A stretch of 62,239 nucleotides of DNA from Atribacterota bacterium (GCA_040767965.1 JAXGNR010000011.1:1-62239); one strand, 5' to 3'. Numbered from the stretch's first letter, positions 3,941 to 20,680 are shown. Translations and numbers: made by a program. Notes: generated by a model from the letters alone, not told the origin.

Positions 3941-3951
3941 GTTAATCTGTA

Positions 3952-3985
3952 AAAGATATGGGTAACCTGTTTTATATTTGATATA
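3952..3985 (+). repeat. Degenerate copy of array repeat (TTTGACAT type)
   Basis: AAAGATATGGGTAACCTGTTTTATATTTGATATA resembles AAAGACATGGGGGCCAGGTCTTCACATTTGACATA at 20273-20307 at both ends; core is decayed. Confidence 0.4.
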
Positions 3986-4015
3986 ATTTACAATCTTAAA
4001 ATGGAGGTTAATAAA

Positions 4016-4177: not shown

Positions 4178-4190
4178 GAAAATCAAACGC

Positions 4191-4212
4191 CCAGTTTTTC
4201 TTGTTTGATATA
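4191..4212 (+). repeat. Degenerate array repeat preceding nucleosidase fragment 1
   Basis: CCAGTTTTTCTTGTTTGATATA vs CCAGGTCTTCACATTTGACATA (16/22), at almost the same distance from the TTG start as in the other two copies. Confidence 0.5.
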
Positions 4213-4243
4213 TTGTAAAAATTGAATCTAAGAAGAGATCATT

Positions 4244-4373
4244 TTGAATAATTCAAAAACTAAAATTGTACTCATTTGTCCACTGGATGATGATTACGAT
4301 GCCAGTAAAGAATTACTGGGTTTGCATAATGAATCAGAAGTATCAGGACGAATTGTTTCAGGAAGAAAGACAT
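4244..4373 (+). pseudogene. 5' fragment (copy 1) of MTA/SAH nucleosidase gene, cut at array repeat
   Basis: ICPLDDDYDASKELLGLHNESEVSGRIVS matches the N-terminus of 16797..17528; homology stops just before GGGGTCAAG at 4374. Confidence 0.85.
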
Positions 4374-4440
4374 GGGGTCAAGTCTTGAATTATCAGTTTT
4401 TACTTAAAAATATAAAGCAAACAGAAAACAGTTCTCTGCA
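4374..4440 (+). repeat. Array repeat GGGGTCAAGTCTTGAATTATCAG plus tail
   Basis: 57/67 nt identical, ungapped, to 11407-11473. Confidence 0.9.
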
Positions 4441-4599
4441 TCACTGCTTATAAAAATTTCATAGGAGTTTAACATGGATAAAGTAAGTTTTAACGGGAAA
4501 ATATTTACTTATTTTGAATATGCCAAAGAGTGCGATTTTGAAAAAGATGTAAAAATATTTAAAAATAACAACAAAAAGATAGAATAGTAGAGTTTTTAT

Positions 4600-5136
4600 T
4601 AACCCGTTAGGGCAGAAAACCATGGGCTTGCCCATGGATGAATGAGCAGGCGGCGATATGATAAAATGATAACATGCAAACAAGACTTTCAGGGCACAGC
4701 GCCTATCGTACGGAGTATCATATCGTCTGGATACCTAAATATCGCCGCCGTATCCTAAATCCTGGATTACGTGGATACCTAAGAAAACTTTTTCCTAAGA
4801 TACTCAGGAGCATTCCAGGTTGTGAAATAATAGAATATAACATACAGGTTGATCATATCCATATGATTATGATTATACCGCCAAAATACAGTGTTGCTGA
4901 TGTAATTGGACAGATCAAATCACAGTCGGCCAGTAGACTAAGGAAAAAGTTTTCCTGGCTGTCTAAGGTATACTGGAAAGAGAATATCGTCTGGTCACCG
5001 GGCTACTTTGTCTCAACAGTTGGCATTGATGAGAAAAGTATCATCAAGTATGTCCAATTTCAAGAAAGCCAGGATTTAGGTCAAGCGAAGCTTGAAGGTT
5101 TTTAAAAGTACCACGGGCTTGCCCGTGGATATCTAT
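4600..5136 (+). mobile_element. IS200/IS605-family element (tnpA only); ends approximate
   Basis: Subterminal hairpins CCATGGGCTTGCCCATGG (4620-4637) and CCACGGGCTTGCCCGTGG (5111-5128) flank a Y1 transposase. Confidence 0.85.
4674..5105 (+). CDS. tnpA: IS200/IS605 HUH (Y1) transposase
   Basis: YHIVWIPKYRR, DHIH (HUH), WSPGYFVSTVG, YVQFQ catalytic Tyr motif. Confidence 0.95.
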   Translation: MQTRLSGHSAYRTEYHIVWIPKYRRRILNPGLRGYLRKLFPKILRSIPGCEIIEYNIQVDHIHMIMIIPPKYSVADVIGQIKSQSASRLRKKFSWLSKVYWKENIVWSPGYFVSTVGIDEKSIIKYVQFQESQDLGQAKLEGF

Positions 5137-5212
5137 TAATAAATAATGAGGTTTCATATAATAGGATAGGAATAAAAAATAAATTATTTGATAAACCAAA
5201 AAGGAGTGGAAT

Positions 5213-5260
5213 ATGAAAGATGCACAAAAGCAAATAAAGGGGTCAAATCTTTATTATTGA
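5213..5260 (+). pseudogene. Gene-start stub (MKDAQKQIK) running into array repeat
   Basis: AAGGAG RBS + ATG; frame enters GGGGTCAAATC at 5239 and stops at TGA 5258. Confidence 0.35.
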
Positions 5261-5303
5261 CAATATAAAGAAAAGAAAGAACTCAGGTCTTGAATTATCA
5301 GTT
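5239..5303 (+). repeat. Two tandem array-repeat half-sites
   Basis: GGGGTCAAATCTTTATTATTGACA (5239-5262) and TCAGGTCTTGAATTATCAGTT (5283-5303). Confidence 0.8.
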
Positions 5304-5455
5304 GTTTTGTTTAAAAGGAAGACTCTTCCTATTTGATTCAGACAAAAAGCTTAAATATTAAGGATTTTAATATGAATGAAAAAGAATGGATGAAAATAGT
5401 TAGATATATTTAAATAATATAAAACTTTATTTATTTTATTAAAAGGAGTGCAATC

Positions 5456-5697
5456 ATGATACCAGATTTTCAGAGTATTATGCTTCCCTTGCTTAAAATA
5501 GCAGGTGACAAGAAAGAACATACCTTGCAGGAAATAAGAGAATCCTTGGCTGATTATTTTCAATTGACTGATGAAGATAAGTCAAAGCTTTTATCTAAGA
5601 CCAGGCACCCAGTATTTGGTAATAGGGTTGGATGGGCTAGAACATATTTAAAAAAAGTCGGACTTTTAGAATATACTTCAAAAGAAGAAGGAAGAGA
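5456..5697 (+). pseudogene. mrr: Mrr restriction endonuclease N-terminal (winged-helix) fragment, cut at repeat hairpin
   Basis: MIPDFQSIMLPLL..NRVGWARTYLKKVGLLE is the Mrr N-terminal domain; no catalytic domain follows and the ORF tail is translated repeat. Confidence 0.8.
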
Positions 5698-5748
5698 GGG
5701 TCATGTCTTGAATTATAATTTTTATCTGATATTTCAAGAACTGACCCC
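5698..5748. repeat. Complete REP-like hairpin form of array repeat
   Basis: GGGTCATGTCTTGAA-N20-TTCAAGAACTGACCCC: arms are inverted copies of the repeat core. Confidence 0.9.
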
Positions 5749-5769
5749 AAAGACAAAGAGGAATACATT

Positions 5770-8139
5770 TTGTTAAAAAAAATTATTTCAATAAAAAACA
5801 TTGGTGTGCTAAAAGATTGTTACTTTAATTGCAAAGATAATTTTGATAAGGTAAACATTATTTATGGATATAACGGTGAAGGAAAGAGTACTGTTTGTGC
5901 AATTATAAGGTCTTGTATAGAGGGGAAACTATCTTTAATTACTGAGAGAAAAAGTTACTATTGTAAAAGCAATGATGAAATAAGTTGTGATATTTTATGT
6001 CGGGAAAATAGTAACAATTGTTCCTATAAATTTCAAAATGATTCTTGGAATGATAATCTGAAAAATACCATTATCTATGATTCCTATTTTATTGATAACT
6101 GTATACATACTGGATTAAACATTCACTCTGACCACCAAAAAGGGTTATATGAATTTGCCATAGGCGAAGAAGGAGTGTTTCTAAGTAAAAGAATTGAGGA
6201 AATAAAAATAGCCAATAAAAAACTTTTTAGTAAATTAGATAACAAGAAAGTAGTCATAAGAGCTTTAGCTAAAAATAAGTTTTCAATTGAAGAATATATA
6301 TTATTGAAAAAAGAACCTGAAATTGATGCCAAAATAGAAATAATTGAGAGAAAAATTGGAACAGCAAAGGTAAATGATGAAATAAAGAAAAAAGAAAAGC
6401 TATACGAAATTGACAGAATTAATACTTCTATTGATTTTAAAGAATTGAAGACTTTATTAGAAAAAACAATCAAAAATGTTTCTACAGATTCCTCTGAAAA
6501 AGCCAAAAAGTATTTAGACAAATTAAACAATACAATGGAAGGTAATGCAGAAGAATGGCTGCAACAAGGTCTCAATAATTATGAGTCATTAACAGATAAT
6601 AAATGTCCTTTTTGTCAAAAAGAATTGTTTCCTGATGATGAAATAATAATTATATATAATAATTATTTCAATCGGGAATTTAAAAATTATAAGATAGGTT
6701 TAACAGATTTTTCAAATAGGTTGGGCATGTATTCTATAGATATAGAAATTCAAAAGATTGAGAACATTGCTAATAATAATAATTCATTAATGGAATTTTG
6801 GAAAAATCATTTAGAAGTAAAAGAGTATCCCTTTATTGATTTTAAAGATTCTGAGGAAAATACTAAGAAAGATGCCAAGAAAAATCTTAAGAAAAAAATA
6901 AAAGAAGATTACCTCAATATAAAATTAACAATGGAAAATAAATTAAAAAAAATACTTGATTCGGTGAAAACGAATTCTATAGATGATTTCTTAAAAAGTT
7001 TAGAAGAAATAAATAATAAAATATATGAATACAATATCATTTGTAAAAATATAAATAATAAAATATATGAATTAAAAAATAAACAACCTAATTTAGTGAA
7101 TCTGAAAAATGAAAAAGAATCTCTGGAGATTAAGAAAGAAAGATTTGAAGAAAAAAATGAAAATTATTGTAGAATTTATGATTTAATTAACAAAAAAATT
7201 AAAAGAAATCAGGAACAGGTTACTGAATTAAGTGAAAAATTAAAAAAAGATATTAATTCTAAAATAGAAATATATGGTGAATCAGTAAATGGATATCTAG
7301 AAAAATTTGGATTACCATTTAAAATTGTTAATGCTAAATCTAAATATAAAGGGACAAGCATAGAACCTTACCTTGATTATTACCTTCAAGTTAAAGAAAA
7401 TAAAATAAATCCTTTACAAAAAGCACGATATGTCTTAAGCGATGGTGATAAAAATTCCCTTGCCTTATCCTTCTTTTTTGCCAGATTAGATGTAGAACAG
7501 GATATTAAAGATAAAGTAGTTATTTTGGATGACCCGGTTTCCAGTTTAGACAGAAATCGTAGAATGAGGACAATTGAATGTATAAAAGATTTTTCCAGTA
7601 GATGTTCACAAATAATTGTTTTAACACACTATGATATATTCGCATTTAAACTATATGAAGACCTTTCTGAAACACTTAAAAATATCAAAACATTCCAAAT
7701 AAAAAATTCAAAAATTAATAATTGGGATATTGCTGAAGAAAGCAAACATCAATATTTTCAAGATATTGATAAATTGGAAAAATTCTGTGAGAAAATCGAA
7801 ATATTAAATAATAGAGACGCTGAATATTTAATTAGGAAAGTGCTTGAAAATGCATTGAAATTCAGATATTTCCAACATTTTAAAAATTTGGGAAGTAAAT
7901 GTTGGTTAAGGCCAATGATAGAAGAATTAAAAAAAATTAGTCAAACAGACCCTGCATTCAAATTTAGAAACCCAGATACTAATAGAGTTTTTAATGAGCT
8001 AGATAATCTTTGTGATTTTTCAAATACATTCCACCATGCAAATTCAGATAGACCTTATAGGGATATAAATACCTATGACGAACCAGAGATTAGAAATTAT
8101 GCTCAATCCACTTTAGAACTAGTATTTAACGATTTATAG
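5770..8139 (+). CDS. Rad50/SMC-like ABC ATPase with zinc hook, RloC-like anticodon nuclease candidate
   Basis: Walker A GYNGEGKST, zinc hook CPFC, coiled coils, signature LSDGDK, Walker B ILDDPVSSLD, LTH switch; C-terminal helical domain IRKVLE..NTFHH (HEPN-like). Confidence 0.8.
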   Translation: MLKKIISIKNIGVLKDCYFNCKDNFDKVNIIYGYNGEGKSTVCAIIRSCIEGKLSLITERKSYYCKSNDEISCDILCRENSNNCSYKFQNDSWNDNLKNTIIYDSYFIDNCIHTGLNIHSDHQKGLYEFAIGEEGVFLSKRIEEIKIANKKLFSKLDNKKVVIRALAKNKFSIEEYILLKKEPEIDAKIEIIERKIGTAKVNDEIKKKEKLYEIDRINTSIDFKELKTLLEKTIKNVSTDSSEKAKKYLDKLNNTMEGNAEEWLQQGLNNYESLTDNKCPFCQKELFPDDEIIIIYNNYFNREFKNYKIGLTDFSNRLGMYSIDIEIQKIENIANNNNSLMEFWKNHLEVKEYPFIDFKDSEENTKKDAKKNLKKKIKEDYLNIKLTMENKLKKILDSVKTNSIDDFLKSLEEINNKIYEYNIICKNINNKIYELKNKQPNLVNLKNEKESLEIKKERFEEKNENYCRIYDLINKKIKRNQEQVTELSEKLKKDINSKIEIYGESVNGYLEKFGLPFKIVNAKSKYKGTSIEPYLDYYLQVKENKINPLQKARYVLSDGDKNSLALSFFFARLDVEQDIKDKVVILDDPVSSLDRNRRMRTIECIKDFSSRCSQIIVLTHYDIFAFKLYEDLSETLKNIKTFQIKNSKINNWDIAEESKHQYFQDIDKLEKFCEKIEILNNRDAEYLIRKVLENALKFRYFQHFKNLGSKCWLRPMIEELKKISQTDPAFKFRNPDTNRVFNELDNLCDFSNTFHHANSDRPYRDINTYDEPEIRNYAQSTLELVFNDL

Positions 8140-8252
8140 AAAGATTTTTCTCATTATTTTAACCTGTATATTCTTAATTGATTAAATAAAGTAATATTTT
8201 TTCATTTAAATATAAAAAAAATAAAGAAAGCAAAGAGGTATTTTTTTATATT

Positions 8253-8540
8253 ATGGAATTTTTTAGAACCATTAAAGAGAACTTTATTCTATTACTAGGT
8301 AGCGGTTTATTTACCTATGGTTTATTCAATTTTGCTAGTTCTAAGCACAAAGGAATTGATATACCTATTCTTTTAAAATTTAAAGAGATGTCCAATGGGG
8401 TATCTGAAATCAGAACATTCCCGGTAGCTACTTATTATTACTATGATTTTCCAAACAAACTCTTATTAACTGTAGGTGCCATCCTAATTGTAATCGGAAT
8501 ATTAATGATAATTGGAAAAAAGCATACTGAAAAAGGATAG
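8253..8540 (+). CDS. Small two-TM membrane protein
   Basis: Two hydrophobic segments, 95 aa. Confidence 0.6.
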   Translation: MEFFRTIKENFILLLGSGLFTYGLFNFASSKHKGIDIPILLKFKEMSNGVSEIRTFPVATYYYYDFPNKLLLTVGAILIVIGILMIIGKKHTEKG

Positions 8541-8587
8541 AAGAATAATTTTTTATAAATAAAATTGAATATATAGGGGTTTTATAA

Positions 8588-9838
8588 ATGAAAAGACTTA
8601 AAATAAATTTATTTGTATTAATTGCATGTTTTACCATCTTCTCGTTTACCTGTTATTGCAATGAAACCGTCACTCCACAACAAGATGAAGCCATAGAATG
8701 GCTAGAAAAAGCAAAAAATATAGAAGGTTTCGATAATCTGGAATTAAAGATTGAATATTGCACCAAAGCAATAGAAATAGACCCTGGATTTGCTAATGCT
8801 TATTACTATCGCGGTGGAGCTTTTTATAATATGGAAGAATATTTAGAGGCAATCGATGATTTTAATAAGGCAATTGAATTAGACCCAGAGTTAGTTGATG
8901 CTTATGATAATCGAGGATCTGTTTATATTCAATTGGGGGAATATCAGAAAGCTATCGATGATTGCACAAAGGCGCTAGAGCTAGACCCCGACAAAGTAGA
9001 TGCTCACAATCATCGTGGAATCGCATTTAGCTGCCAGGAAGAATATCAAGAAGCAATCAATGATTTTACTAAGGCAATTGGAATAGACTCGGAAGATTTT
9101 TGGGCATATAGAAACCGCGGGATTGCTTATTATGAAAAGGGCGAATATCAGAAGGCAATCGATGATTGCACAAAGGCTTTAGAGCTAGAGCCGGGTTTGC
9201 CTTATGCTTTTTATTATCGAGGACTTTCATATAACATCCAGGATAATCACAGAGAAGCTATTGATGACTTTTCAAAAACAATTAGTCTTGAACCAAAACT
9301 AATCGAGGCTTATCGTCATCGTGGCATTGCATTTTATTACCAGGAAGAATATCAAAAAGCAATCGATGATTTTACTAAGTTTCTAGAAAATAGACCAGAA
9401 ACATTAGAGATTTATTTTTACCGTGGTAACTCATTCTATCACAAGAAAGAATACAGTATGGCAATCAATGACTTTAATAGAGGCATAGAACTTATGCCGG
9501 ATATATTTAGAGGTGTAGAAATAGTACCAAAAATAATAGAATCTTACCAAAATCGTGGGATTGATTATTATGAAAAAGGGGAATATCAAAAAGCAATCGA
9601 TGACTTTACAAATGCATTAGAGTTAGACTCGGGATTGCCTTATGCTTTTTATTATCGAGGACTTTCGTATTCACTACTTCAAGAATATTCTACAACTGCC
9701 TGTGGAAATTTGTACCAAGCAGGAATGATATTTCTTGAACAAAACAATAAGAACCAAGCTCTAATATGTGTTGATGAAATTAAAAAAATTGATTCTTCAT
9801 CACCGCTTATTAATAAGCTAATTGACGAAATATTTTAG
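8588..9838 (+). CDS. Exported tetratricopeptide-repeat protein
   Basis: Signal-peptide-like N-terminus and ~9 repeats AYxxRGxxYxxxxEYQKAIDDxTKAxELDP. Confidence 0.9.
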   Translation: MKRLKINLFVLIACFTIFSFTCYCNETVTPQQDEAIEWLEKAKNIEGFDNLELKIEYCTKAIEIDPGFANAYYYRGGAFYNMEEYLEAIDDFNKAIELDPELVDAYDNRGSVYIQLGEYQKAIDDCTKALELDPDKVDAHNHRGIAFSCQEEYQEAINDFTKAIGIDSEDFWAYRNRGIAYYEKGEYQKAIDDCTKALELEPGLPYAFYYRGLSYNIQDNHREAIDDFSKTISLEPKLIEAYRHRGIAFYYQEEYQKAIDDFTKFLENRPETLEIYFYRGNSFYHKKEYSMAINDFNRGIELMPDIFRGVEIVPKIIESYQNRGIDYYEKGEYQKAIDDFTNALELDSGLPYAFYYRGLSYSLLQEYSTTACGNLYQAGMIFLEQNNKNQALICVDEIKKIDSSSPLINKLIDEIF

Positions 9839-9895
9839 AAAAAACAAAAAATAACTTTTTAGTATTTTACCATTTTAATATTTGTAGAGGTAAAT

Positions 9896-11386
9896 ATGAA
9901 CAAAGAAAATATGAACTCTAACAAATGCCCCATTTGCGGAAGACCGACCCACAAAACTTCAAAATATTGTATATTCCATGCACCTTTAGAAGAAAAGACT
10001 GAAGAAGAATTCAAAGAAGCATTAGGGCGTTATATTGATAAGATTATAACAGCATCAAAAATCTTTAATTTTGAAAAATTTATATTTATTGGTGAGTTAA
10101 ATTTTTCAAGAGATTTCAATGTAAAAAAAATACATAAAAATCATTTTAATAAGGCTGAATTTTATAATGGCAAAGTAAGTTTTAGTAATATAGTTTTCAG
10201 TAAAAGAACAGTATTTATTAATTGTATATTCGGAGATGAAATAAATTTTTCCGGTAGTCATTTTAAGGAAGCACTAAATATTTACAATACAAATTTTATA
10301 GGTAATGTAAGTTTTAATGAAGTTGAATTCAATACTTTAGAGATAAAGGGTACTACTTTTCAAGGAGGAAATAATAATTTTCAGAAAGCCAGATTCAATA
10401 ATGATTTGACAATTGAATCATGTAATATTAATCATAGCATTAGTTTTAATGAAGCATTATTTTATGGCAACGTCAAAATGGGAGGCAAAGATTTTAATCA
10501 CACTATTTTCAATTTTGATGGGGCAGACATTAATTATAATTTTGAGTTATTTTTTAATTCAAAGGAATTAATACAAATATATCTTACTAAAATAACTATA
10601 AATCCAAATTTTACAAAAATTATTATATCTACAAATAATTCTGGTATCTATTTTAATAATGCAATTTTAGAAAAAACAAGGATGATTTTTGAATTATATA
10701 ATAATTCTTTTTTAGATTTTCATTTGGCCAACCTGAAAGACACAAATTTAAAATATGAACAAATAAAGAAATTTATTGTTCAGGAACAAAGAAAAAATTA
10801 TGAACAAGCTGGTGAAGTATATTTAACCTTAAAGAATAATTTTCATCGTATTGGAAGATATGATGATGAAAGTGAATGTTACAAGAAAGAAATGGATATG
10901 AAAAGAGCATCTAACTGGATTTATAACATGAAATACAATAAACATAATTTAAAAGAATGGATATTAAGTGGTCATTTTTGGAAATGGCTTTCTTCTGCTT
11001 TTTATAATGTTCTTTACGGTTACGGAGAAAGGCCTTGGAATGTAGTTTTATCAGCATTAATAATAATTTTAGGATTTGCATTATTTTTTAATAATATTGG
11101 AATTGGAAATCCTGAAATAATTGAAATAAAAGAACTAATCATTAATGATAAGAATGTACCTTCAATATTAAATTTATCAATAAAAGGAATATTGAAAAAT
11201 AATATAATAAGAAATTTTACGGATAGTCTTTATTTTAGCTTAATTACCTTTACTACTTTAGGGTATGGAGACTTAAGACCACTTGAAGGGATAGGAAGAA
11301 TCTTAGCTGGTTCAGAAGCTTTTATCGGTGCGTTCATGATGGCATTGTTTGTCTATACATTTGCTAGACGAACAGGAGGAAGATAA
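9896..11386 (+). CDS. Pentapeptide-repeat protein with C-terminal two-TM ion-channel domain
   Basis: N-terminal CPIC..CIFH, F-rich beta-helix repeats, YGYGERPW, pore motif YFSLITFTTLGYGD. Confidence 0.85.
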   Translation: MNKENMNSNKCPICGRPTHKTSKYCIFHAPLEEKTEEEFKEALGRYIDKIITASKIFNFEKFIFIGELNFSRDFNVKKIHKNHFNKAEFYNGKVSFSNIVFSKRTVFINCIFGDEINFSGSHFKEALNIYNTNFIGNVSFNEVEFNTLEIKGTTFQGGNNNFQKARFNNDLTIESCNINHSISFNEALFYGNVKMGGKDFNHTIFNFDGADINYNFELFFNSKELIQIYLTKITINPNFTKIIISTNNSGIYFNNAILEKTRMIFELYNNSFLDFHLANLKDTNLKYEQIKKFIVQEQRKNYEQAGEVYLTLKNNFHRIGRYDDESECYKKEMDMKRASNWIYNMKYNKHNLKEWILSGHFWKWLSSAFYNVLYGYGERPWNVVLSALIIILGFALFFNNIGIGNPEIIEIKELIINDKNVPSILNLSIKGILKNNIIRNFTDSLYFSLITFTTLGYGDLRPLEGIGRILAGSEAFIGAFMMALFVYTFARRTGGR

Positions 11387-11406
11387 TTGATTTATAAAAA
11401 GAGATT

Positions 11407-11473
11407 GGGGTCAAGCCTTGAATTACCAGTTTTTACCTAAAAAAGTAAAACAAACAGGAGACAGTTTTCTGTA
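11407..11473 (+). repeat. Array repeat plus tail
   Basis: GGGGTCAAGCCTTGAATTACCAGTTTTTAC.., 57/67 to 4374-4440; 20 nt after the upstream stop codon. Confidence 0.9.
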
Positions 11474-11547
11474 AAAAATATAGTATACGGTTCCCTATTT
11501 GATTGCTTTACCTACCCGAGAGTCAATATAAACAGGAAGTGATAAAA

Positions 11548-13002: not shown

Positions 13003-13169
13003 CAATTGGAATATTAAGAAGAGAGTAAATTATGAAATTTTCTGATTTTACATTTTTAATTTGTTTTGGCTGAGAGACACAGGGGAATAATGAATATAGT
13101 TAATTAAAAGAATATTTATTAAAATTTTAAGTATATAATGATTCTATTGAAAGGAGTTAAAATAGATAG

Positions 13170-13940
13170 ATGGTAAATGGTAAATTCATAGAGGATTGGA
13201 ATAAAAAAGATATACTTTATGCAAAAAGCAGAGGTGGAGTTTTTGTTGTTTCTAATCCTTTGGATAATCTTGTATATCCGGATTATATTAAGTAGCCAAC
13301 ACCTGAAATTGTGCAAAAACTTTATAAAAGCAGACAAATACGAGCATTTGATGGAAATCAATCTTCCATATGCACATCAGGTCTTGGATATTATTGTGAT
13401 TTGCAATCTTTACATAGTGAAGACGCAATAACTTGGTCAATTTTTGGACCTTTGTGCTATTCAAACTTATTGGTTAGAGAGAAGTGGGTTTCTCAATTTT
13501 TGGAATTGTTAGGAATTAAAAAAGCGAAACCAACAAATTCAAATATTTTTTTATGGAGAAGAATTCCTCATCCAGATACACTTGTTTCAGGTGGACCCGA
13601 AATTGATTTTGGAATTTTAACAGACAATACATTGATTTTTGGTGAAGCTAAATGGATGTCAAGAATTGGAAACAAACAAGGTAAAAAAAGGGATAAGGAT
13701 CAAATTCAATTACGACTAGAATTCTTAGATAAATATGGGAAAACTACATTTCCCTCAGTGGACATTTTTTTAGTTGTAGGAGTAGGTTTATCAAAAGATG
13801 CGTTTAATGACAGCAAGTCATTAATATTTGGTGCACGGCTTATTTCTACAACTTGGCTAGATATTTGTTCTATCAAAGAACACCCTCATTATAATGAGAT
13901 CCAAAGGTATTATAAGTGGAAGCTCAAACACACTCTTTAG
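13170..13940 (+). pseudogene. PD-(D/E)xK nuclease-like gene with in-frame stop
   Basis: ATG 13170 reads in frame to TAG 13293-13295, then continues PTPEIVQKLY..SEDAITW..PEIDFG..IFGEAK..DQIQ. Confidence 0.7.
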
Positions 13941-13950
13941 TGATAATCTA

Positions 13951-13995
13951 GGAAGAAATCAGGGGATAGTTAGTGTTTTGCATTATCAGTTTTAC
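13951..13995 (+). repeat. Degenerate array repeat
   Basis: GGAAGAAATCAGGGG..TTTTGCATTATCAGTTTTAC, 10 nt after a stop codon. Confidence 0.55.
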
Positions 13996-14154
13996 TCGAT
14001 CAAAAAGGAGGTAAAAGTTTTTCGACTTTAATATATAAAAAGAAAGTCTACTAAAAAGAGTATTTTGTCTAAAAATAATAAGTTTAAAAACCAAGATAAT
14101 AGTTGAACAAACAGTTTTGTAGAATATTAAGATTTTGTTAGGAGAGGATTTATT

Positions 14155-15189
14155 ATGGCTACAAGAATAAAGACATGGGAAATTGTTGATGATGAATTAA
14201 AAGAAACAGTAGAATCAATGCCAGAGGCAGCCAGGAAAGAAAAAGAGCATTTAGAAAAATGGATTAAAACAAATCCAAAAATATTGGGTGAAGACATATT
14301 GATTATAGGTGAACAAGTCTATACTAAATCAGGTCCATTAGATTTTTTAGGAATTGATAATTCTGGAAATGTTGTAATTGTAGAATTAAAAAGAGATCGA
14401 TTGCCTAGAGAAGTGCTAACACAAGCGATAGATTATGCTTCAGATGTAGCCACCTGGGGCATTGATAGGCTTAATGAGGTTTGTTTGGAATATAGAGAAC
14501 AGGCACTTGAGGATTATATTTCAGAAAAGTTTGAAGGAGTTGAGTTGGAAGACCTTGTTATTAATAAAGCCCAAAGACTTTTATTAGTTGGATTTTCAAT
14601 TGAAGAACCTCTCAGCCGTATGATTGAGTGGTTATCTTCAAATTATGACCTGGGTGTCAATGCTATTATTTTAAATTATATAAAGACTTCATCTGGTGAT
14701 GAATTATTGTCGAAAACAGTCATAATACCTGAAGAAGTTGAAAAAGCAAAATCAAACAAGAAAAAATTCAAAATTTTAATGTCTGATGAACCCGGAACCT
14801 ATTCTGATGAGGAATTAAAAGACTTGCTGATAAAATATTTTTCTAAAGAACTATATTCAGTAAGCAGAATAAAGAATGTTGTTCTACCTTATTTGTTGAA
14901 AAATAAAATTGCAACAAGGGAGGAACTCAAAAAAGAATTTGTGAGAACAAATGCAGCAGATGATAAAAGCCAAGCAGGATATTTCTTGTCATTAATTTCG
15001 AACCAATTAGGGCAACAGAAAAAAGATTATTTAAGACAAATAATAAGTTATGAGTATCCTAATTATTCTTGGGAAAAGGATAATTTTAGATTAAAAGAGG
15101 AATATCGAGAAATGGTTGAGAATATCTTAAAAGAATTAGAAATGTTAGAAGCAGAGAAAGAAAATAAATTGGAAGAAGAAAACTTATAG
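14155..15189 (+). CDS. NucS/DUF91-like endonuclease domain protein
   Basis: EKWIKTNP..IIGEQV..LDFLGID..VIVELKR..QAIDYAS. Confidence 0.8.
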   Translation: MATRIKTWEIVDDELKETVESMPEAARKEKEHLEKWIKTNPKILGEDILIIGEQVYTKSGPLDFLGIDNSGNVVIVELKRDRLPREVLTQAIDYASDVATWGIDRLNEVCLEYREQALEDYISEKFEGVELEDLVINKAQRLLLVGFSIEEPLSRMIEWLSSNYDLGVNAIILNYIKTSSGDELLSKTVIIPEEVEKAKSNKKKFKILMSDEPGTYSDEELKDLLIKYFSKELYSVSRIKNVVLPYLLKNKIATREELKKEFVRTNAADDKSQAGYFLSLISNQLGQQKKDYLRQIISYEYPNYSWEKDNFRLKEEYREMVENILKELEMLEAEKENKLEEENL

Positions 15190-15220
15190 TTATTAATTAA
15201 AACAGCTTGGAGAATTTTTT

Positions 15221-16033
15221 ATGAGAGTCGTATCCTGGAATTGCAAAGGCGCTACCAAAGAGAATAAAATATGGAATTACCTGCAAAACTTATCTCCTGA
15301 TATTTTGCTACTTCAGGAAGTAACTTCATTTCCTCTTTGGATAGAGGAAAATTATTCTTTTAATTACAAAAAGTCTATTACAAAAAATTATAATAAGCAG
15401 AAATTTGGTAATTTATTAGCTTATAAAGGTAAATACATAAAAGAGTGTAATTTAACGGTAGATTTAATGTGGGTAAATGATGAGATTAAAAAATTTAAAG
15501 GGAATATGAGTACAAGCGTAATAAATTTTAAGGGTATCATATTAAATTTAATTTGTATTTATAGTCCTGCCTGGCATTTAAACAAGAGTTTATTAAAACA
15601 AGAAAATATAGATTCTGTTAAATTGTCGCAGAGTAAGAATTTATGGCTTGCAGATTTATTGTGGTTTGCTCTGAAAAGTAATGTTAAATCTGAATCTTAT
15701 TATATTGTTGGAGGAGATTATAATCTTTCAGTAACATTTGATTCCTGGCAAAAGAAGCCCAGGGGGAATCAAGAATATTTAGATAGGATGAAAAATATTG
15801 GTTTTATTGAATGTTTGAAAGAATTTAATTGCAAACTGGTTCCTACATTTAAAAATTCAAGTAATGGGAAAATAATCCATCAAATGGATCATTTATTTGT
15901 TATACAGAGTTTATATTCGAAGTTGAATAACTGTCATCTTGGTGATGCCGATGTTATTTTTAAGAATAACTTAAGTGATCATTTGCCCATTATTGCTGAT
16001 TTTGATTTAGATAGACTAATAAAATTTCTTTAA
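15221..16033 (+). CDS. Endonuclease/exonuclease/phosphatase (EEP) family protein
   Basis: SWN, LLQE, GGDYN, MDHLF, SDHLP motifs. Confidence 0.9.
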   Translation: MRVVSWNCKGATKENKIWNYLQNLSPDILLLQEVTSFPLWIEENYSFNYKKSITKNYNKQKFGNLLAYKGKYIKECNLTVDLMWVNDEIKKFKGNMSTSVINFKGIILNLICIYSPAWHLNKSLLKQENIDSVKLSQSKNLWLADLLWFALKSNVKSESYYIVGGDYNLSVTFDSWQKKPRGNQEYLDRMKNIGFIECLKEFNCKLVPTFKNSSNGKIIHQMDHLFVIQSLYSKLNNCHLGDADVIFKNNLSDHLPIIADFDLDRLIKFL

Positions 16034-16037
16034 ATAA

Positions 16038-16071
16038 GGAAGAAAAGGGGTCAGGTCTTCTCATTTGACAT
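16038..16071 (+). repeat. Array repeat (TTTGACAT type)
   Basis: GGAAGAAAAGGGGTCAGGTCTTCTCATTTGACAT, 4 nt after the EEP stop. Confidence 0.9.
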
Positions 16072-16282
16072 ATAGACAATAAAAATATCTATATTAGGAA
16101 ATAAATCAATAAAGCCAACAAAGAAATATATGGTCTGTTGTTGATTTTAAAACTTTAAAGCTGTAATACAAAAAAAATAATCAATATAGTCATAATATTG
16201 TTAGTAGTACTTTTATTTGAATGAATATAATTATTAGTCTTAGAAGGAGGTATTGATGAAATTATTTAGAGAGGATGCAAAG

Positions 16283-16715
16283 TTGAAAAAGAAGAATTAT
16301 ATTGTAATTTTATCATTGATTTCAATCCTATTATTTGCAGGTTGTAGTGCAGGAAATCCAACCACTCCAGGAATATCAACCAATGAGGAAGTGAAAATAA
16401 AAAGCGTTATAAATGAATTTTTTAGCTATAAATAATCAAAACTGGAATAAAGCAAGGAATTATTGTGTTAATGCCGGAACAAGATATTATGCTACAAGTC
16501 AAATGGAAAGTCTAGTGAATTCATACTATTCTTATTGCTATGTAGTCACTGTTAATTTTATACCTGATATTATTAATATTTCTGTAACTGGAAATTACGC
16601 CCAGGTATATATGTATTATTATGGGACAGTATCGGCATGTGGTTATTTTTATTCTGATGGATATTATACTACTTACACATTACAGAAAGTTGGTAATAGT
16701 TGGAAAATAAATTAA
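16283..16715 (+). pseudogene. Lipoprotein gene, frameshifted at T-run 16418-16423
   Basis: Lipobox LFAGC; ..VINEFF then LAINNQNWNKA..LQKVGNSWKI in another frame (NTF2-like ending). Confidence 0.65.
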
Positions 16716-16738
16716 AGTAATGAGAAAATAGTAATACT

Positions 16739-16763
16739 GTGGTAAGGTCTCAATGTTTGCCAT
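16739..16763 (+). repeat. Diverged array repeat in front of intact nucleosidase
   Basis: 16739-16799 aligns without gaps to 20282-20342 from repeat to TTG start. Confidence 0.75.
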
Positions 16764-16796
16764 AAAACACAACATATAATTTAATAAGAGGTTATT

Positions 16797-17528
16797 TTGA
16801 ATAAAGCAAAAATCAAAGTTGGAATCATTTGTCCACTTGATGATGAGTACAATGCCTGTAAAGAAATAATGGGTTTGAAAAATGAATCAGAATTATCAGG
16901 CCGAATTGTTTCAGAAAAAAAAGAGGATAACATAGAGGTTTATGCAATTAAGGCAGGAGTTGGTAAAATCAATTGCAGTTCTGCTACACAATTAGTTATT
17001 GATAAGTTTCATACTAATTTTGTTATTGATGCCGGCGTTGCCGGATCTCTAATTAAAGATTTGGATATTTTTGATATCGTTTGTGCTGAACATTGTTATG
17101 AATATGACCCATGTTCTGGTAAGGAATTGGGGAAAATACCTTCCGGGGATGATGAATCTCATACAGTGATAAGTGATCCTTTCTATAAAGAAGCTTTTCT
17201 GGAATTTTCCAACCATATCCAAGACACAATGACAATTAATATCAGGATTGGTAATGTTGTCTGTGGTGAAAAGGATGTTAAAAACCGGCAATTAAGGCAA
17301 GAATTACACGAAAATTTTAATGGACTTGTTTGCAACTGGGAAACATCTGCTGTTTTAAGTGTTGCAAACTTAAATAAAGTAAAAGCTTTTTCATTCCGGG
17401 TCATTTCTGATTTAGCTGATGAAAATATGGATGATTCTTTTGATACAAATTGTAAGCCAGCACTTCAGAAGATGTTCCCGGTATTAAAGGAATTTATCTT
17501 TGGAGGCTGGATACAGAAGTTTTGTTAA
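16797..17528 (+). CDS. 5'-methylthioadenosine/S-adenosylhomocysteine nucleosidase family (PNP_UDP fold)
   Basis: GVGKIN, AGVAGSL, WETSAV (MExAA-like), FRVISDLA. Confidence 0.88.
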   Translation: MNKAKIKVGIICPLDDEYNACKEIMGLKNESELSGRIVSEKKEDNIEVYAIKAGVGKINCSSATQLVIDKFHTNFVIDAGVAGSLIKDLDIFDIVCAEHCYEYDPCSGKELGKIPSGDDESHTVISDPFYKEAFLEFSNHIQDTMTINIRIGNVVCGEKDVKNRQLRQELHENFNGLVCNWETSAVLSVANLNKVKAFSFRVISDLADENMDDSFDTNCKPALQKMFPVLKEFIFGGWIQKFC

Positions 17529-17617
17529 GAAAGAAGCTAAAGCCACAAATTTTTAATATTAACTGTTGTTTTTTTGATAATGTTTCTTAAGATAGTATTT
17601 ATAAATTGGGGGTTTAA

Positions 17618-18268
17618 ATGAAATTTTATTTATTTTCTACAATTGAACTTGAAATTCCTGATCCTGTCTCTCTAGTTGAATGCTATTGTTACCAGAGTGA
17701 TTTTTATTCCAAGTATGATGTGATAGGAAATCGTAAAATTGAAGATGTAAATAAGATTGGAGCAAGACTAACAAGTGATGTAATTTCAAAATGTAGGGTT
17801 GTAGTTGAAAACACCATGGGATTAGATATATTTCAGAATACACTTGCTCAATTTTTGGATTTAGACAGACAGGAAAGAGAAAAACAGATCAAAGAATTAA
17901 ATGGTGTAGTTTTTCAAAAACTCTTTAAAATTAATGGAATCCGTTTTTCTACTGCAACAAAGATTCTGCATACAATTTACCCTGAGATTATTCCGATGAT
18001 TGATAATCCACTACAAAGAAAATACAAAAAAGAAATCAATCATTCCTGGACTTATAAAAATGCTGATGAAATTTTAATAGATTTTTATAATAATTTGGAA
18101 AATGAGGATATTAGAAAAAATTTAAATGAGCTTTCTACTGAGCTAATCAAAATCAATCTTAAGCATCTTACTAAAATTAGAATCTTTGATATTCTCTGGC
18201 GGTCTTATCTGAAAGCAGAAAGATTGAAGAATTTAAGGAATATTAATTGGACCTCGATTTTGTATTGA
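17618..18268 (+). CDS. DUF6308-like (helix-hairpin-helix) hypothetical protein
   Basis: GIRFSTATKILHTIYPEIIPMIDN..TKIRIFDILW. Confidence 0.55.
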   Translation: MKFYLFSTIELEIPDPVSLVECYCYQSDFYSKYDVIGNRKIEDVNKIGARLTSDVISKCRVVVENTMGLDIFQNTLAQFLDLDRQEREKQIKELNGVVFQKLFKINGIRFSTATKILHTIYPEIIPMIDNPLQRKYKKEINHSWTYKNADEILIDFYNNLENEDIRKNLNELSTELIKINLKHLTKIRIFDILWRSYLKAERLKNLRNINWTSILY

Positions 18269-18314
18269 TAATCGTTACCAGAGTGATATTTATTATATAT
18301 ATTAGTTAATTAAT

Positions 18315-18378
18315 TTGACATTGTCCAATTAAAGCATTAATATATTTACAATAATATAATATTACAATAATTGGAGAA
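18315..18378 (+). promoter_or_regulatory. abiE promoter with long inverted-repeat operator
   Basis: TTGACA 18315-18320; 26-bp arms 18321-18346 and 18353-18378 match 20/26 as inverted repeat. Confidence 0.7.
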
Positions 18379-18384
18379 TAACCA

Positions 18385-19227
18385 ATGAATGCAAGAAATA
18401 ATAGTAAGCATACTAGAAAAGGTATAGAAATGATCAGGAAGCTTTCTGAAGAAGGGAAACAAATATTTACTGTTAGTGATGCTAAAAAGATTGCTCCCTT
18501 TTGTGAGATATCAGAGCAGTATGTCAATGAAGCCTTGTATTACCTTGCAAAAGATGGTTGGATAAAAAGACTTAAAAGAGGCTTATACTTGATTTCTTCA
18601 TCCTTTCCAGGAATAGTGCCAGCACATGAATTTGAAATTGCCATGTTTTTAGTAGAACCTGCTGCTATAAGCCATTGGTCTGCTCTTCATTTTCATGGCA
18701 TGACAGAACAAATACCAAATAAAGTCTATATAACAACTTCAGGTAATATTTCAGCTGAGAGAAAAATAAATTCACAAAACAATAATTTAAAGGGCTTCAG
18801 CAGAAAGATAAATAATATTATATATGTTTTTATTAAGGTCAAACCGGAAAGATTTTTTGGTGTTAAAGAATATTGGGTTGGCGAGAAAAAAGTTACCATC
18901 ACTAACCCGGAAAGAACGTTGATAGACGGTTTGGTATCTCCAGGATATTTTGGAGGATGGGCTGAAATATATAATGCTTTTGAATTACATGTCTCAAGAG
19001 TTAATATAAATAAACTAATCAGTTATGCTATGAGGCTTGATGCATCTGTAGTGAAAAGATTAGGATGGATATTAGAAAAAAATGGATTTGAAGAAAAAAA
19101 ACTGCAAAAGTTGATAGCTTTTCCTATCAAAGGGTACCGTATCCTTGATTCTAGCGGCTTTCAAACGGGGCCTTATAATAAAAAATGGATGATTCGAGAA
19201 AACATTTCAGTAAAGGGAATGAAATGA
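18385..19227 (+). CDS. abiEi: Type IV TA antitoxin AbiEi family
   Basis: N-terminal wHTH (GWIKRLKRGLY), ISHWSALHFHGMTEQIP, TNPERTLID, KRLGWILE. Confidence 0.88.
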   Translation: MNARNNSKHTRKGIEMIRKLSEEGKQIFTVSDAKKIAPFCEISEQYVNEALYYLAKDGWIKRLKRGLYLISSSFPGIVPAHEFEIAMFLVEPAAISHWSALHFHGMTEQIPNKVYITTSGNISAERKINSQNNNLKGFSRKINNIIYVFIKVKPERFFGVKEYWVGEKKVTITNPERTLIDGLVSPGYFGGWAEIYNAFELHVSRVNINKLISYAMRLDASVVKRLGWILEKNGFEEKKLQKLIAFPIKGYRILDSSGFQTGPYNKKWMIRENISVKGMK

Positions 19228-20088
19228 AACCAATTAGAAAAAGACTAGAGGAAGCAAGAAAAGAAACTGGCTTACCATGGGAAATAATTGAAAAGGATTA
19301 TATTCTTTCTTGGATTTTAGCTGGTATTGCTACCAACAAAGCATTAAAAAACGAATTGATATTTAAAGGAGGAACTGCATTAAAAAAGTGTTATTTTGGA
19401 GATTATAGGTTTTCAGAGGACCTTGACTTTAGTTTAAAAAAATAATATTTCAGGGGAAAATATTCTAGAACAAGAGATTAAAAGGTCTTGTAAGGTTGCT
19501 GTAGATTTGGTTCAGAAGTTTTCACCTCTTGAGTTGAAAATTGAAAAATATACGGAAAAGCAAAGTCATCCAGATAAACAAGAAGCATTTACTGTTAGAG
19601 GTAAATTCCCCTGGCACAGAGATTTTTTTTCGAAAGCCAAGATCGAAATTACAACTAATGAACCAATTATAATGGAACCCAAAAAAAGAAATATTATTCA
19701 TGGTTATCAAGAGGATCTATCAAAAGAATTATCCGTTTATTCACTTGAAGAAATTATATCTGAAAAATTAAGAGCAATATTACAACATTTAAAGAAATTA
19801 GAACAAAGAGGTTGGACAAGATCACGAGCAAGGGATTATTATGATTTATGGAGAATCTTTAATGCTTATAATAAAGATTTAAATTTGAATAACATACCAT
19901 CAGTCTTTCTAAAAAAATGTGAAGTTAAAGATATTAATTTTTCAGGGGCAGATGCTTTTTTTGATGAGAGATTATTGACATATATTGCTGATACTTGGAA
20001 TCAATGGTTAGGTCCTTTGGTTCCAGATCTGCCAGAGTTTCAGTTAGTAATAGATGATTTAAGAGAAAAGATCTACCAGTTATTTTAA
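19224..20088 (+). pseudogene. abiEii: AbiEii nucleotidyltransferase toxin, frameshifted at A7 run 19436-19442
   Basis: ATGA overlap with abiEi; EKDY, FKGGTALKK, RFSEDLDF, then EKLRA and RARDYYDLW in the next frame. Confidence 0.85.
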
Positions 20089-20269
20089 TTAAGAATATAT
20101 TTATTTTTTCCAATATCTATATAGATATTCCCAATAATACAGATAAAAATTAGCATAAGTGGAGACAGGTATTTTCAGAATTATTTTTTTATAGTCTGAT
20201 GATTCTTACTGACTATTACAAAAAAGCCTAAAATTGATGCAAGCTAAAACATCTATATAATTGGCGAAT

Positions 20270-20306
20270 AAGAAAGACATGGGGGCCAGGTCTTCACATT
20301 TGACAT
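20270..20306 (+). repeat. Array repeat (TTTGACAT type)
   Basis: AAGAAAGACATGGGGGCCAGGTCTTCACATTTGACAT; first 15 nt identical to 4363-4377. Confidence 0.88.
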
Positions 20307-20339
20307 AAAATACAAAATAGAAAACAATAAGAGGTCATC

Positions 20340-20513
20340 TTGAACAATCAAAAATTTAAAATTGTAATCATTTGTCCCCTTGATGATGAATATTATGCTT
20401 GTAAAGAAATACTGGGTTTGCAGAATGAATCAGAAGTAGCAGGACGAATTGTTTCAGAAAGAAAAAAGGATAATGTAAAAGTAGTTACAATTAAATCAAG
20501 AGTTGATAAAATA
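20340..20513 (+). pseudogene. 5' fragment (copy 3) of MTA/SAH nucleosidase gene
   Basis: 58 codons colinear with 16797..; followed by TTTGACAT and GGGTCAGATATTG (20543) repeat remnants. Confidence 0.85.
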
Positions 20514-20680
20514 TTTGACATTGGCTTTTTAGGTCAGTCAATGGGTCAGATATTGTCTTGAAATACAAACCTTACCCTTTATTCGTAAATCATCTTCCCA
20601 TCCTTCAATTGTTTCTTGATTCTCTGTACCCATTTTAACGACTCCTGTCTGGGCAGGGCGTCTTTGGTCACATTATTGCA

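What the first reader, a model, noticed from the sequence alone, without database searches (positions are those of the whole stretch)
4191..20561. One cassette (repeat + leader + nucleosidase 5' end) occurs three times; two copies are truncated at or near the next repeat
Seen: 16739-16799 and 20282-20342 align without gaps from the first base of the repeat through RBS to the TTG start. The copy at 4244 has a decayed repeat at nearly the same offset. Only 16797-17528 is complete. Copy 1 stops after ~41 codons, just before GGGGTCAAG (4374); copy 3 stops after 58 codons, followed by TTTGACAT and GGGTCAG remnants. The copies are diverged, so they are unlikely to be an assembly duplication. Inference: the mobile unit begins at the repeat and its far end is imprecise, as expected for one-ended (HUH/rolling-circle-like) capture or repeated insertion into a resident cassette.
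Basis: partly seen in the sequence, partly recalled or inferred. Interest (0 to 1): 0.85.

Follow-up and report, generated by a model that had tools for sequence, protein, structure and literature searches.

The report
Transposase-linked repeats bound defence-gene cassettes
The repeat in front of the nucleosidase gene is one arm of a known transposase-associated inverted repeat, and in this uncultured bacterium such arms mark the seams where defence-gene cassettes are swapped, leaving cut-off gene beginnings behind.

Summary
One intact nucleosidase gene (16797-17528) and two diverged 5' pieces (42 and 58 codons) each follow the same repeat and leader. Homology starts at the repeat. A fourth, intact copy lies on another contig.

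The repeat is one arm of the terminal inverted repeat (TIR) of a TIRYT/"TIRtron" element. TIRYT is a RAYT-like Y1 HUH transposase with a DnaA-C-like HTH. The arm starts with the published GGGGWSAS motif. It occurs in 35 of 41 related Atribacterota genomes searched.

In the window, eight solo arms, all on the gene strand, sit between defence cassettes. Comparison with relatives and metagenome contigs shows that units led by a TIR keep a fixed left boundary at the TIR. That boundary often includes a short purine-rich tract. The gene upstream is cut at variable points: nucleosidase after codons 42, 58, 145 or 150, Mrr after codon 74.

One contig carries the full nucleosidase in copy 1's exact upstream context. 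The stubs are therefore truncated residents, not transposed partial copies.

One-ended rolling-circle capture is not supported. The enzyme responsible is not shown.

The parts
4191..4216 (+). decayed TIR arm in front of nucleosidase copy 1
   Evidence: It aligns with the arms of copies 2 and 3. nhmmer does not detect it.
4244..4369 (+). nucleosidase 5' stub, 42 codons (copy 1)
   Evidence: tblastn gives 61.9% identity, E 1.3e-11. L085 carries the full gene in the same upstream context.
4363..4402 (+). purine-rich outer tract plus solo TIR arm (GGGG at 4373) that ends copy 1
   Evidence: The same 15 nt (tract plus GGGG) stand at 20268-20286.
4373..4438 (+). 66-nt unit (TIR arm plus inner 40 nt), repeated at 11406-11471 at 86% identity
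   Evidence: Family D10.
4476..4552 (+). 5' stub of an unnamed gene
   Evidence: L093 holds about 90 codons of the same gene, there cut by the 16034 tract plus TIR.
4587..5143 (+). IS200 copy (tnpA 4674-5105) with its own end hairpins; it is not the partner of the TIR
   Evidence: Pfam Y1_Tnp 2.3e-31. NCBIfam transpos_IS200 119 bits. Hairpins at 4620-4637 and 5111-5128. Extent taken from matches in relatives.
5238..5301 (+). two solo TIR arms (5238-5265 and 5283-5301)
   Evidence: nhmmer.
5456..5684 (+). Mrr restriction-endonuclease 5' stub, about 74 of about 305 codons
   Evidence: Pfam Mrr_N only. A full-length relative with Mrr_N and Mrr_cat is in G026. Homology to relatives ends at 5684.
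5697..5749 (.). TIR dimer (two arms in inverted orientation, hairpin) that ends the Mrr stub
   Evidence: It folds at -9.9 kcal/mol, z -2.76.
11406..11435 (+). solo TIR arm between the ion-channel gene and the DUF2779 gene
16034..16073 (+). purine tract plus solo TIR arm; left boundary of a unit shared with L093
   Evidence: Homology to L093 (95.9%) starts at 16034. Upstream of it L093 has a different, truncated gene.
16739..16766 (+). solo TIR arm in front of the intact nucleosidase
   Evidence: nhmmer 12.7 bits. C5/C11 identity rises from 26% to 91% at its inner edge.
16797..17528 (+). intact nucleosidase (PNP_UDP_1 superfamily)
   Evidence: Pfam 7.3e-22, 78.3 bits against a cut-off of 25.1. 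It is below the MTA/SAH nucleosidase equivalog cut-offs.
17541..17566 (+). probable decayed TIR arm behind the nucleosidase (seen by eye only)
   Evidence: G001 and G007 have clear co-oriented arms at this place. The next cassette's boundary at 17569-17572 is seen in G017 and in a contig of run X4.
17618..18268 (+). gene with a weak DUF6308 match; a separate cassette in relatives
   Evidence: Pfam 5.6e-05, below the cut-off. It is found without the nucleosidase in G009, G013, G017 and G037.
18385..20088 (+). AbiEi (18385-19227) and a split AbiEii (19185-19445 plus 19507-20088)
16768..20266 (+). 3.5 kb block duplicated on contig C5, bounded by TIR arms at both loci
   Evidence: 96.4% identity with sharp edges. 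The right edge at 20266/7 is followed by an arm in C11, C5 and G017.
20268..20310 (+). purine tract plus solo TIR arm in front of copy 3
   Evidence: nhmmer 18.7 bits.
20340..20513 (+). nucleosidase 5' stub, 58 codons (copy 3)
   Evidence: tblastn gives 65.5% identity, E 1.3e-18.
20508..20532 (+). junction sequence behind copy 3
   Evidence: It is identical behind the 57-codon stub of G010. It also occurs with 1 mismatch at C5:22722, where no nucleosidase sequence was recognised upstream (by eye).

Best explanation
The repeat is one arm of the terminal inverted repeat (TIR) of a TIRYT/TIRtron-type element. TIRYT is a RAYT-like Y1 HUH transposase with a C-terminal DnaA-like HTH. The element family is spread through this order of Atribacterota.

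In the window's defence island, solo arms lie between gene cassettes and all point the same way as the genes. 'Arm + leader + nucleosidase' is an inherited unit within one clade of this nucleosidase.

The island is rebuilt by recombination events with one fixed end and one variable end. The fixed end is the outer edge of a TIR-led unit, often including 10-15 nt of purine-rich sequence. The variable end falls inside the cassette that lies upstream.

Each event leaves the upstream cassette's own arm, leader and 5' gene piece as a stub. The two short nucleosidase copies are such relics of resident cassettes. The intact copy and its twin on contig C5 are cassettes that were exchanged whole.

Shown: the identity of the repeat, the boundaries, and the resident nature of copy 1.

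Inferred: that the TIR itself directs the breakpoints. Two routes are possible and are not resolved here. One is cleavage and joining of single-stranded DNA by the TIRYT enzyme. The other is host recombination anchored on the TIR with a microhomology join at the other end.
For: Identity of the repeat:
- In G024, two exact 25-nt arms in inverted orientation flank a 319-aa ORF. The ORF carries Pfam Y1_Tnp (7.3e-12) and Bac_DnaA_C (8.4e-12).
- The arm begins GGGGTCAG, which fits the GGGGWSAS motif of TIRYT repeats (passages of PMC3733652, and PMC6006769).
- Arms occur in 35 of 41 related genomes, against 0 hits for the reversed control pattern.
- TIRYT-like genes occur in 44 of 52 genomes.
- The window's own genome has the arm followed by the first 66 codons of the cognate gene at a contig end.

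Boundaries at arms:
- C5/C11 identity jumps from 26% to 91% at 16764 and falls from 95% to 37% at 20263.
- The right edge at 20266/7 is followed by an arm and then three different cassettes in C11, C5 and G017.
- The nucleosidase is flanked by co-oriented arms in G001 and G007.
- Homology between L093 and the window starts at 16034, behind a different, truncated gene.
- L140 and L099 share only an arm plus 37 nt, in different contexts.

Stubs abutting arms:
- nucleosidase after codon 42 (window), 58 (G015), 145 (G012) and 150 (L140, directly on a perfect arm);
- Mrr after codon 74;
- a 19-codon stub in L099.

Copy 1 is a resident: L085 matches window 3701-4368 at 89% and carries the full gene.

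Stubs decay: they carry stops or lost start codons in G015 and G001.

Enrichment: 8 of the 19 arms scoring 10 bits or more in the 2.33 Mb genome lie within 16 kb of the window.
Against: - No transposition intermediate, empty site or target duplication was seen.
- The flank just outside GGGG has no constant tetranucleotide of the kind IS200/IS605 enzymes require.
- Two junctions show 8-10 nt of microhomology. One joins the purine tract at nucleosidase codons 39-44 to the tract in front of the arm. The other is the TTGATAAAAT-like stretch at copy 3. This points to ordinary illegitimate recombination rather than an enzyme.
- The 96% block excludes both flanking arms. Neither a simple 'arm plus cargo' excision nor a 'cargo plus arm' excision fits it.
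- The nucleosidase also shows internal deletions shared between genera (codons 44-100 in G001 and G013). A few 3'-only pieces exist (G027:C107, G015:C39:3087-3167). Part of the decay is therefore unrelated to arms.
- Several decayed arms were called by eye only.
- All comparison genomes are metagenome bins or short contigs.
Confidence: 0.6

Rival explanations
1. One-ended HUH or rolling-circle-like capture. The enzyme nicks at the arm and copies or transfers the adjacent DNA for a variable distance. Each short copy is then a transposed partial copy placed at a new site.
For: Units share a left boundary at the arm and have variable right ends: 62 nt (L140/L099), 66 nt (4373/11406), and 126-174 nt of gene (window copies). 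The associated enzyme is an HUH protein.
Against: Copy 1 sits in the same upstream context as a full-length gene in L085, so it was truncated in place. Most stubs end exactly at the outer edge of the next arm. A randomly terminating copy would not be expected to do this. The enzyme is a single-tyrosine Y1 type. From recalled knowledge, such enzymes work by excision and insertion of single strands, whereas rolling-circle transposition belongs to Y2 enzymes such as IS91 and Helitron. No such gene was seen among the window ORFs scanned.
Confidence: 0.12
2. The arm in front of the nucleosidase is only an old insertion that became part of the gene's promoter region. The short copies are ordinary pseudogenes. 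Their nearness to other arms reflects the high density of arms in intergenic DNA of a recombining island.
For: The spacing between arm and start codon is 31-44 nt across genera and contigs. This is like the 26-29 nt in front of the TIRYT gene itself. The arm holds TTGACA and TTCACA hexamers, and a conserved TATAAT follows in intact copies. One promoter-like site, at 20300-20328, was picked up. The distant nucleosidase clade mostly lacks the arm: 58 of 66 have none detected and 8 have an inverted arm at 95 nt. Internal deletions occur without arms.
Against: The promoter scan is not above chance in this AT-rich DNA: 110 sites found against 101.7 +/- 9.4 expected. TTGACA lies only 12 nt from TATAAT. 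At least six stubs of four different genes abut an arm within 0-15 nt. Homology breakpoints between near-identical populations fall at arms. About ten arms in 17 kb give roughly a 2% chance per junction (my estimate).
Confidence: 0.15
3. Assembly or binning artefact: the copies and junctions arise from mis-joined strain variants in a metagenome-assembled genome.
For: The genome is a metagenome bin of 30 contigs with 3.9% contamination. Arms sit at several contig ends. C5 and C11 may come from different strains.
Against: The copies differ by 16-20%. Equivalent structures occur in independent assemblies: a near-identical copy 2 locus in L093 (99.1% over 16100-16738), copy 1's context in L085, and the copy 3 junction in G010. 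Contigs from four public runs of four studies cover parts of the region, including 18218-20313 in one piece.
Confidence: 0.03

Closest known systems
TIRtron / TIRYT elements (Di Nocera et al. 2013, PMC3733652; subclass 2.1.2 of TnpA-REP-like Y1 proteins in Quentin et al. 2018, PMC6006769; passages read)
   Same: A Y1 HUH transposase gene is flanked by long inverted repeats that begin with GGGGWSAS. The protein has a C-terminal Bac_DnaA_C-like HTH. The repeats are dispersed as singles, dimers and groups.
   Different: The passages I read describe repeat families and their flanking of the transposase gene. They do not describe solo arms as seams between gene cassettes or next to truncated genes. 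No Atribacterota are mentioned in the passages read. The supplements that list the elements could not be opened.
REP / REPIN-RAYT systems (Bertels and Rainey 2011, PMC3116915, abstract seen in listing; NCBIfam NF047646)
   Same: Short repeats are tied to a Y1 transposase gene that they flank in inverted orientation. Dimers form hairpins. From the abstracts seen, the systems are inherited over long times.
   Different: There is no GTAG tag. A single arm does not fold better than shuffles (z 0.35). The protein scores 66.4 bits against the model's cut-off of 80.
IS200/IS605 insertion sequences
   Same: The catalytic domain is the same. A genuine IS200 lies in the window at 4587-5143.
   Different: IS200 has distinct left and right subterminal hairpins (4620-4637 and 5111-5128) and a 143-aa transposase. 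Its ends are unrelated to the TIR. From recalled knowledge, the family needs a fixed target tetra- or pentanucleotide. None was seen at arm flanks.
Integron cassette arrays (attC sites, IntI integrase)
   Same: Cassettes are co-oriented and separated by short, partly palindromic sites that all point one way. The same cassette occurs in different orders in related genomes.
   Different: No integron integrase is present: the best TIGR02249 match is 78 bits against a cut-off of 265. Most sites are half-sites. Cassettes are often truncated, which integron recombination does not do. The partner enzyme would be an HUH protein, not a tyrosine recombinase.
REP-mediated rearrangements and homology-facilitated illegitimate recombination (recalled from the literature; no paper opened here)
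   Same: One end of the event sits on a short shared repeat and the other is a microhomology join. The result is a duplication or replacement with the repeat at the join.
   Different: Here the anchor would be only 25-40 nt. From recall, this is shorter than the anchors used in transformation studies. The pattern also recurs across many cassettes and genera.

Membership tests
TIRtron / TIRYT | Y1 HUH transposase related to RAYTs | tested here: met
   Pfam Y1_Tnp 7.3e-12, 45.9 bits against a cut-off of 23. An H-Y-H triplet is visible in the translation. NCBIfam REP_Tyr_transpos is the best hit but lies below its cut-off (66.4 against 80).
TIRtron / TIRYT | transposase gene flanked by long inverted repeats | tested here: met
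   In G024:C15 the arms are at 4151-4175 (+) and 5164-5188 (-) around the ORF at 4204-5160. Arm pairs about 1 kb apart also occur in G037:C20 and G032:C70, with TIRYT matches between them.
TIRtron / TIRYT | outer end of the repeat fits GGGGWSAS | tested here: met
   The arm starts GGGGTCAG. The motif is taken from PMC3733652 and PMC6006769.
TIRtron / TIRYT | C-terminal HTH (Bac_DnaA_C, HTH_23 or HTH_28) of subclass 2.1.2 | tested here: met
   Bac_DnaA_C 8.4e-12 at residues 233-294.
TIRtron / TIRYT | cognate transposase present in the window's own genome | tested here: inconclusive
   Only the first 66 codons (64% identity) are present, behind an arm at the end of contig C19. A second gene, 37% identical, has its own different repeat.
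TIRtron / TIRYT | enzyme binds and cuts the repeat; the repeat is mobile | not testable with these tools
No excision or circle junction was seen in the contigs laid.
classical REP / RAYT | GTAG (or CGTC) tag, and each unit is itself a hairpin | tested here: not met
   The arm has no GTAG. A single arm from L009 folds no better than shuffles, z 0.35.
integron | IntI integrase | tested here: not met
   TIGR02249 gives its best match at 78.4 bits against a cut-off of 265 in the whole genome.
integron | attC sites with R''/R' core sites between all cassettes | tested here: not met
   Most sites are single arms with no partner arm: only 5697-5749 is a dimer. By eye the arm holds only 6-of-7 matches to the recalled core consensus, and these lie in the middle of the arm.
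IS91 / ISCR / Helitron-type rolling-circle elements | Y2 Rep-type transposase next to the unit | tested here: not met
   None is present among the 30 window ORFs scanned with Pfam. The rest of the genome was not searched for it.
PNP_UDP_1 nucleosidase superfamily (the cassette's gene) | domain match above Pfam's cut-off | tested here: met
   78.3 bits against 25.1, covering 1-232 of 233 profile positions.
MTA/SAH nucleosidase (housekeeping equivalog) | score above the NCBIfam equivalog cut-off | tested here: not met
   92.7 bits against 169 for NF004079, and 53.4 against 73.8 for TIGR01704. There are weak PADLOC hits to a PN-superfamily effector at 6.3e-07.

The most novel reading that the evidence does not exclude
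The TIRYT enzyme and its repeat arms form a single-strand, HUH-driven cassette platform. The enzyme cuts at the outer edge of a co-oriented arm at the replication fork. It then joins that end to another arm or to an upstream 3' end. Arm-led defence and toxin-antitoxin cassettes are thereby excised, inserted and stacked. This resembles an integron but uses a different enzyme class, and gene stubs are its by-product. It would give domesticated RAYT/TIRYT transposases a function: building defence islands.
Probability: 0.2. Interest if true: 0.85.

Novelty: new variant of a known kind. Interest (0 to 1): 0.6.

Why it matters
What RAYT- and TIRYT-type transposases and their repeats do for their hosts is an open question. 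The papers read here describe the repeats but no role in gene exchange. This window, with its relatives, gives concrete and checkable junctions where such repeats coincide with cassette boundaries in a defence island of an uncultured phylum.

If the enzyme makes these joins, it would be a new route for assembling defence islands. It would also be testable with oligonucleotides and purified protein. If host recombination makes them, the case still shows how a 25-nt repeat can organise the turnover of defence genes and explains the many gene stubs in these genomes.

For annotation, it identifies ORFs 4244-4453, 5456-5776 and 20340-20561 as relics.

Tried and rejected
- Rfam: the whole window at gathering threshold gave only an FMN riboswitch at 35422-35576. 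Window 20400-21200 at E up to 1 gave only chance-level hits. The repeat is no known RNA family.
- No tRNA was found in the window, so there is no tRNA-linked island.
- The sigma-70 promoter scan was not above chance and could not decide the promoter idea.
- Integron reading: rejected.
- I considered a composite element with cargo between inverted arms in G026 (arms at L074 1183 and 5281-5307). I dropped it because the right site is itself a decayed dimer.
- Hairpin between the purine tract and the GTCTT of the arm: two of three solo window arms folded that way, with z -2.57 and -1.39. The complementarity is only 4-5 nt of purine against pyrimidine. I left it as a note.
- Pairwise identities of the first 126 nt of 18 copies gave no resolved grouping. 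The age of the stubs could not be ordered.
- The full records behind L140 and L099 are not held. I could not look further downstream for the missing 3' part of the nucleosidase.
- Laid contigs were short. Joints with under 30-32 nt on a side are treated only as hints.
- Literature: searches for 'Atribacteria' with 'RAYT' (3 incidental hits), 'TIRYT/TIRtron' (only the two papers cited), and Atribacterota with defence, mobile elements and repeats found no description of this arrangement.
- The match G019:C39:12902-13072, which starts 18 nt upstream of the arm at 73% identity, was not inspected.

Full report
**Observation**

The window is a whole 62-kb contig (C11) of a 2.33-Mb, 30-contig genome with about 33% G+C. 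Record titles of close relatives place it in Atribacterota, and all of them are metagenome bins.

The intact gene at 16797-17528 is a PNP_UDP_1 superfamily nucleosidase. tblastn finds its first 58 codons at 20340-20513 and its first 42 at 4244-4369. DNA identity among the three is 80-84%.

The 61 nt upstream have 20 of 61, against a background of 17.4 +/- 3.7. A four-way alignment shows homology starting at the repeat and none before it.

A fourth, intact copy lies on contig C5 (91% aa identity). It is part of a 3.5-kb block, C11:16768-20266 = C5:12947-16445, that is 96.4% identical. The block holds the nucleosidase, a DUF6308-like gene, AbiEi and a split AbiEii.

**What the repeat is**

Genome-wide, the 25-nt arm occurs mostly as palindromic dimers. 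It is present, often letter for letter, in 35 of 41 related genomes from two families. A reversed control pattern gave 0 hits.

In several relatives two arms about 1 kb apart in inverted orientation flank one gene. In G024 this is a 319-aa protein with a Y1_Tnp (HUH) domain and a Bac_DnaA_C HTH. Its best NCBIfam hit is the REP-associated tyrosine transposase model, below the cut-off.

Passages of two papers describe exactly this arrangement. It is called TIRYT/TIRtron, the repeats begin with GGGGWSAS, and the proteins carry DnaA-C-like HTH domains (PMC3733652; PMC6006769). The arm here begins GGGGTCAG.

The window's genome has an arm followed by the first 66 codons of the cognate gene at the end of contig C19. 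It also has a second, different TIRYT with its own repeat family of 14 copies. TIRYT-like genes occur in 44 of 52 genomes of the order.

The IS200 in the window (4587-5143) is a separate element with its own hairpins.

**The island**

Window 1 to about 26,000 is a defence island. It holds:
- a WYL regulator
- an AAA_13/PDC-S06 ATPase
- a TPR protein
- a pentapeptide ion-channel protein
- a DUF2779/Cas4-like protein
- a PDC-S11 protein
- an EEP-family protein
- AbiE
- DndB-like and ARPP-1 proteins
- an IS1595

Eight solo arms and one dimer lie between 4373 and 20310. All solo arms are on the + strand, as are the genes. That is 8 of the 19 arms scoring 10 bits or more in the whole genome.

In six loci of relatives, 15 of 17 detected arms are co-oriented with an adjacent ORF of 100 aa or more. 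The exceptions are L044:7939 and L074:1183.

**Boundaries fall at arms**

- The C5/C11 block has sharp edges. Identity goes from 26% to 91% at 16764, the inner edge of the arm. It falls from 95% to 37% at 20263, just before the tract and arm.
- The right edge, 20266/7, is the same in C11, C5 and G017. Each time it is followed by an arm and then a different cassette.
- In G001 and G007 the nucleosidase alone is flanked by co-oriented arms. In the window a decayed arm, seen by eye, stands at 17541-17566.
- The next cassette starts at 17569-17572. An arm precedes it in G017 and in a contig of run X4, joint 5262 to 17569.
- L093 is a metagenome contig 99.1% identical over 16100-16738. It shares the window's sequence from 16034, which is the purine tract plus arm. 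Upstream it has about 90 codons of the gene whose first codons stand at window 4476-4552.
- L140 and L099 share only an arm plus 37 nt (96.8%) in different contexts.

**Stubs**

Truncated genes abut arms repeatedly:
- nucleosidase after codon 42 (window);
- nucleosidase after codon 58, followed by tract and arm in G015. The window's copy 3 and G010 share one junction that looks like a further deletion of it;
- nucleosidase after codon 145 in G012;
- nucleosidase after codon 150 in L140, directly on a perfect arm;
- Mrr after about 74 of about 305 codons, with the full gene in G026;
- a 19-codon stub in L099;
- 20 nt of the DUF6308-like leader on C5.

L085 matches window 3701-4368 at 89% and then carries the whole nucleosidase. 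Copy 1 was therefore cut in place. Stubs carry stops or lost starts in relatives, so they are decaying relics.

**Against a tidy mechanism**

- The nucleosidase occurs in 16 of 52 genomes. It also shows internal deletions shared between genera and a few 3'-only pieces.
- Two junctions show 8-10 nt of microhomology.
- Flanks outside GGGG share no fixed short word.
- The 96% block excludes both arms.
- Among 80 metagenome homologues, the 13 assessable close ones all have the arm or a remnant 31-44 nt upstream: 7 by nhmmer and 6 by eye. Of the 66 distant ones, none has a co-oriented arm and 8 have an inverted arm at 95 nt.

**Verdict**

The repeat belongs to a known kind (TIRYT repeats). Its role as the seam of cassette exchange in a defence island, with a fixed boundary at the arm and stubs upstream, is not described in the papers I could read or find. 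Their supplements were closed.

Noticed in passing
G000 contig C4:184252-185131 and 13 other places; C5:22759: A second repeat family (a self-complementary unit of about 27 nt around GGGGACGGTTC) flanks a second Y1 transposase gene, 37% identical to the first. It has 14 copies in the genome. One lies just behind the sequence that abuts nucleosidase copy 3's junction module on C5.
   Followed up: partly
window 4587-5143: A compact IS200 (tnpA 4674-5105) has near-identical end hairpins at 4620-4637 and 5111-5128. Related copies occur in many genomes of the order.
   Followed up: partly
window 4363-4373, 5680-5696, 11395-11405, 16034-16045, 20268-20281: Solo arms in the array carry a 10-15 nt purine-rich tract on their outer side, which dimers elsewhere lack. 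In two of the three solo window arms folded, it pairs with GTCTT of the arm. It may be part of the recognised site or a target preference.
   Followed up: partly
window 20555-21044: A non-coding stretch is 92-93% identical to pieces in G006 and about 75-91% identical to shorter pieces in at least six other relatives. It has a strong hairpin at 20913-20938. It has no Rfam match and no convincing ORF.
   Followed up: partly
window 17705-18176: An internal deletion of the DUF6308-like gene with the same end points is present in G001, G015 and in contigs of three public runs. The variant is widespread.
   Followed up: partly
window 19185-20088: AbiEii is split into two ORFs (profile positions 1-41 and 100-233), here and on C5. 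It is probably inactive. Contigs of all four runs laid lack one base at 19436.
   Followed up: no
window 9893-10900 vs contig C22:107-1147: A 75% identical paralogue of the pentapeptide ion-channel gene lies on another contig.
   Followed up: no
window 24862-25294 and 25294-26155: Short segments are shared with C5 (16514-16573, 17409-17505, 20837-21056) next to an IS1595 copy that is 90% identical to one on C8. This is another recombination patch at the island's edge.
   Followed up: no
C5:16514-16750 and L044 2990-3180: The left end of a MazEF-like cassette is shared between C5 and G001 without a recognisable arm. Not every cassette seam has the repeat.
   Followed up: partly
window 35422-35576: FMN riboswitch (109 bits).
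   Followed up: no
loci L049, L054, L057, L059: Nucleosidase homologues sit on contigs binned as Halanaerobiales, Nanoarchaeota, Flavobacteriaceae and Eubacteriales. Three of the four (not L057) have a detected arm, upstream of the gene in L049, L054 and L059. This means either horizontal spread or mis-binned Atribacterota contigs.
   Followed up: no
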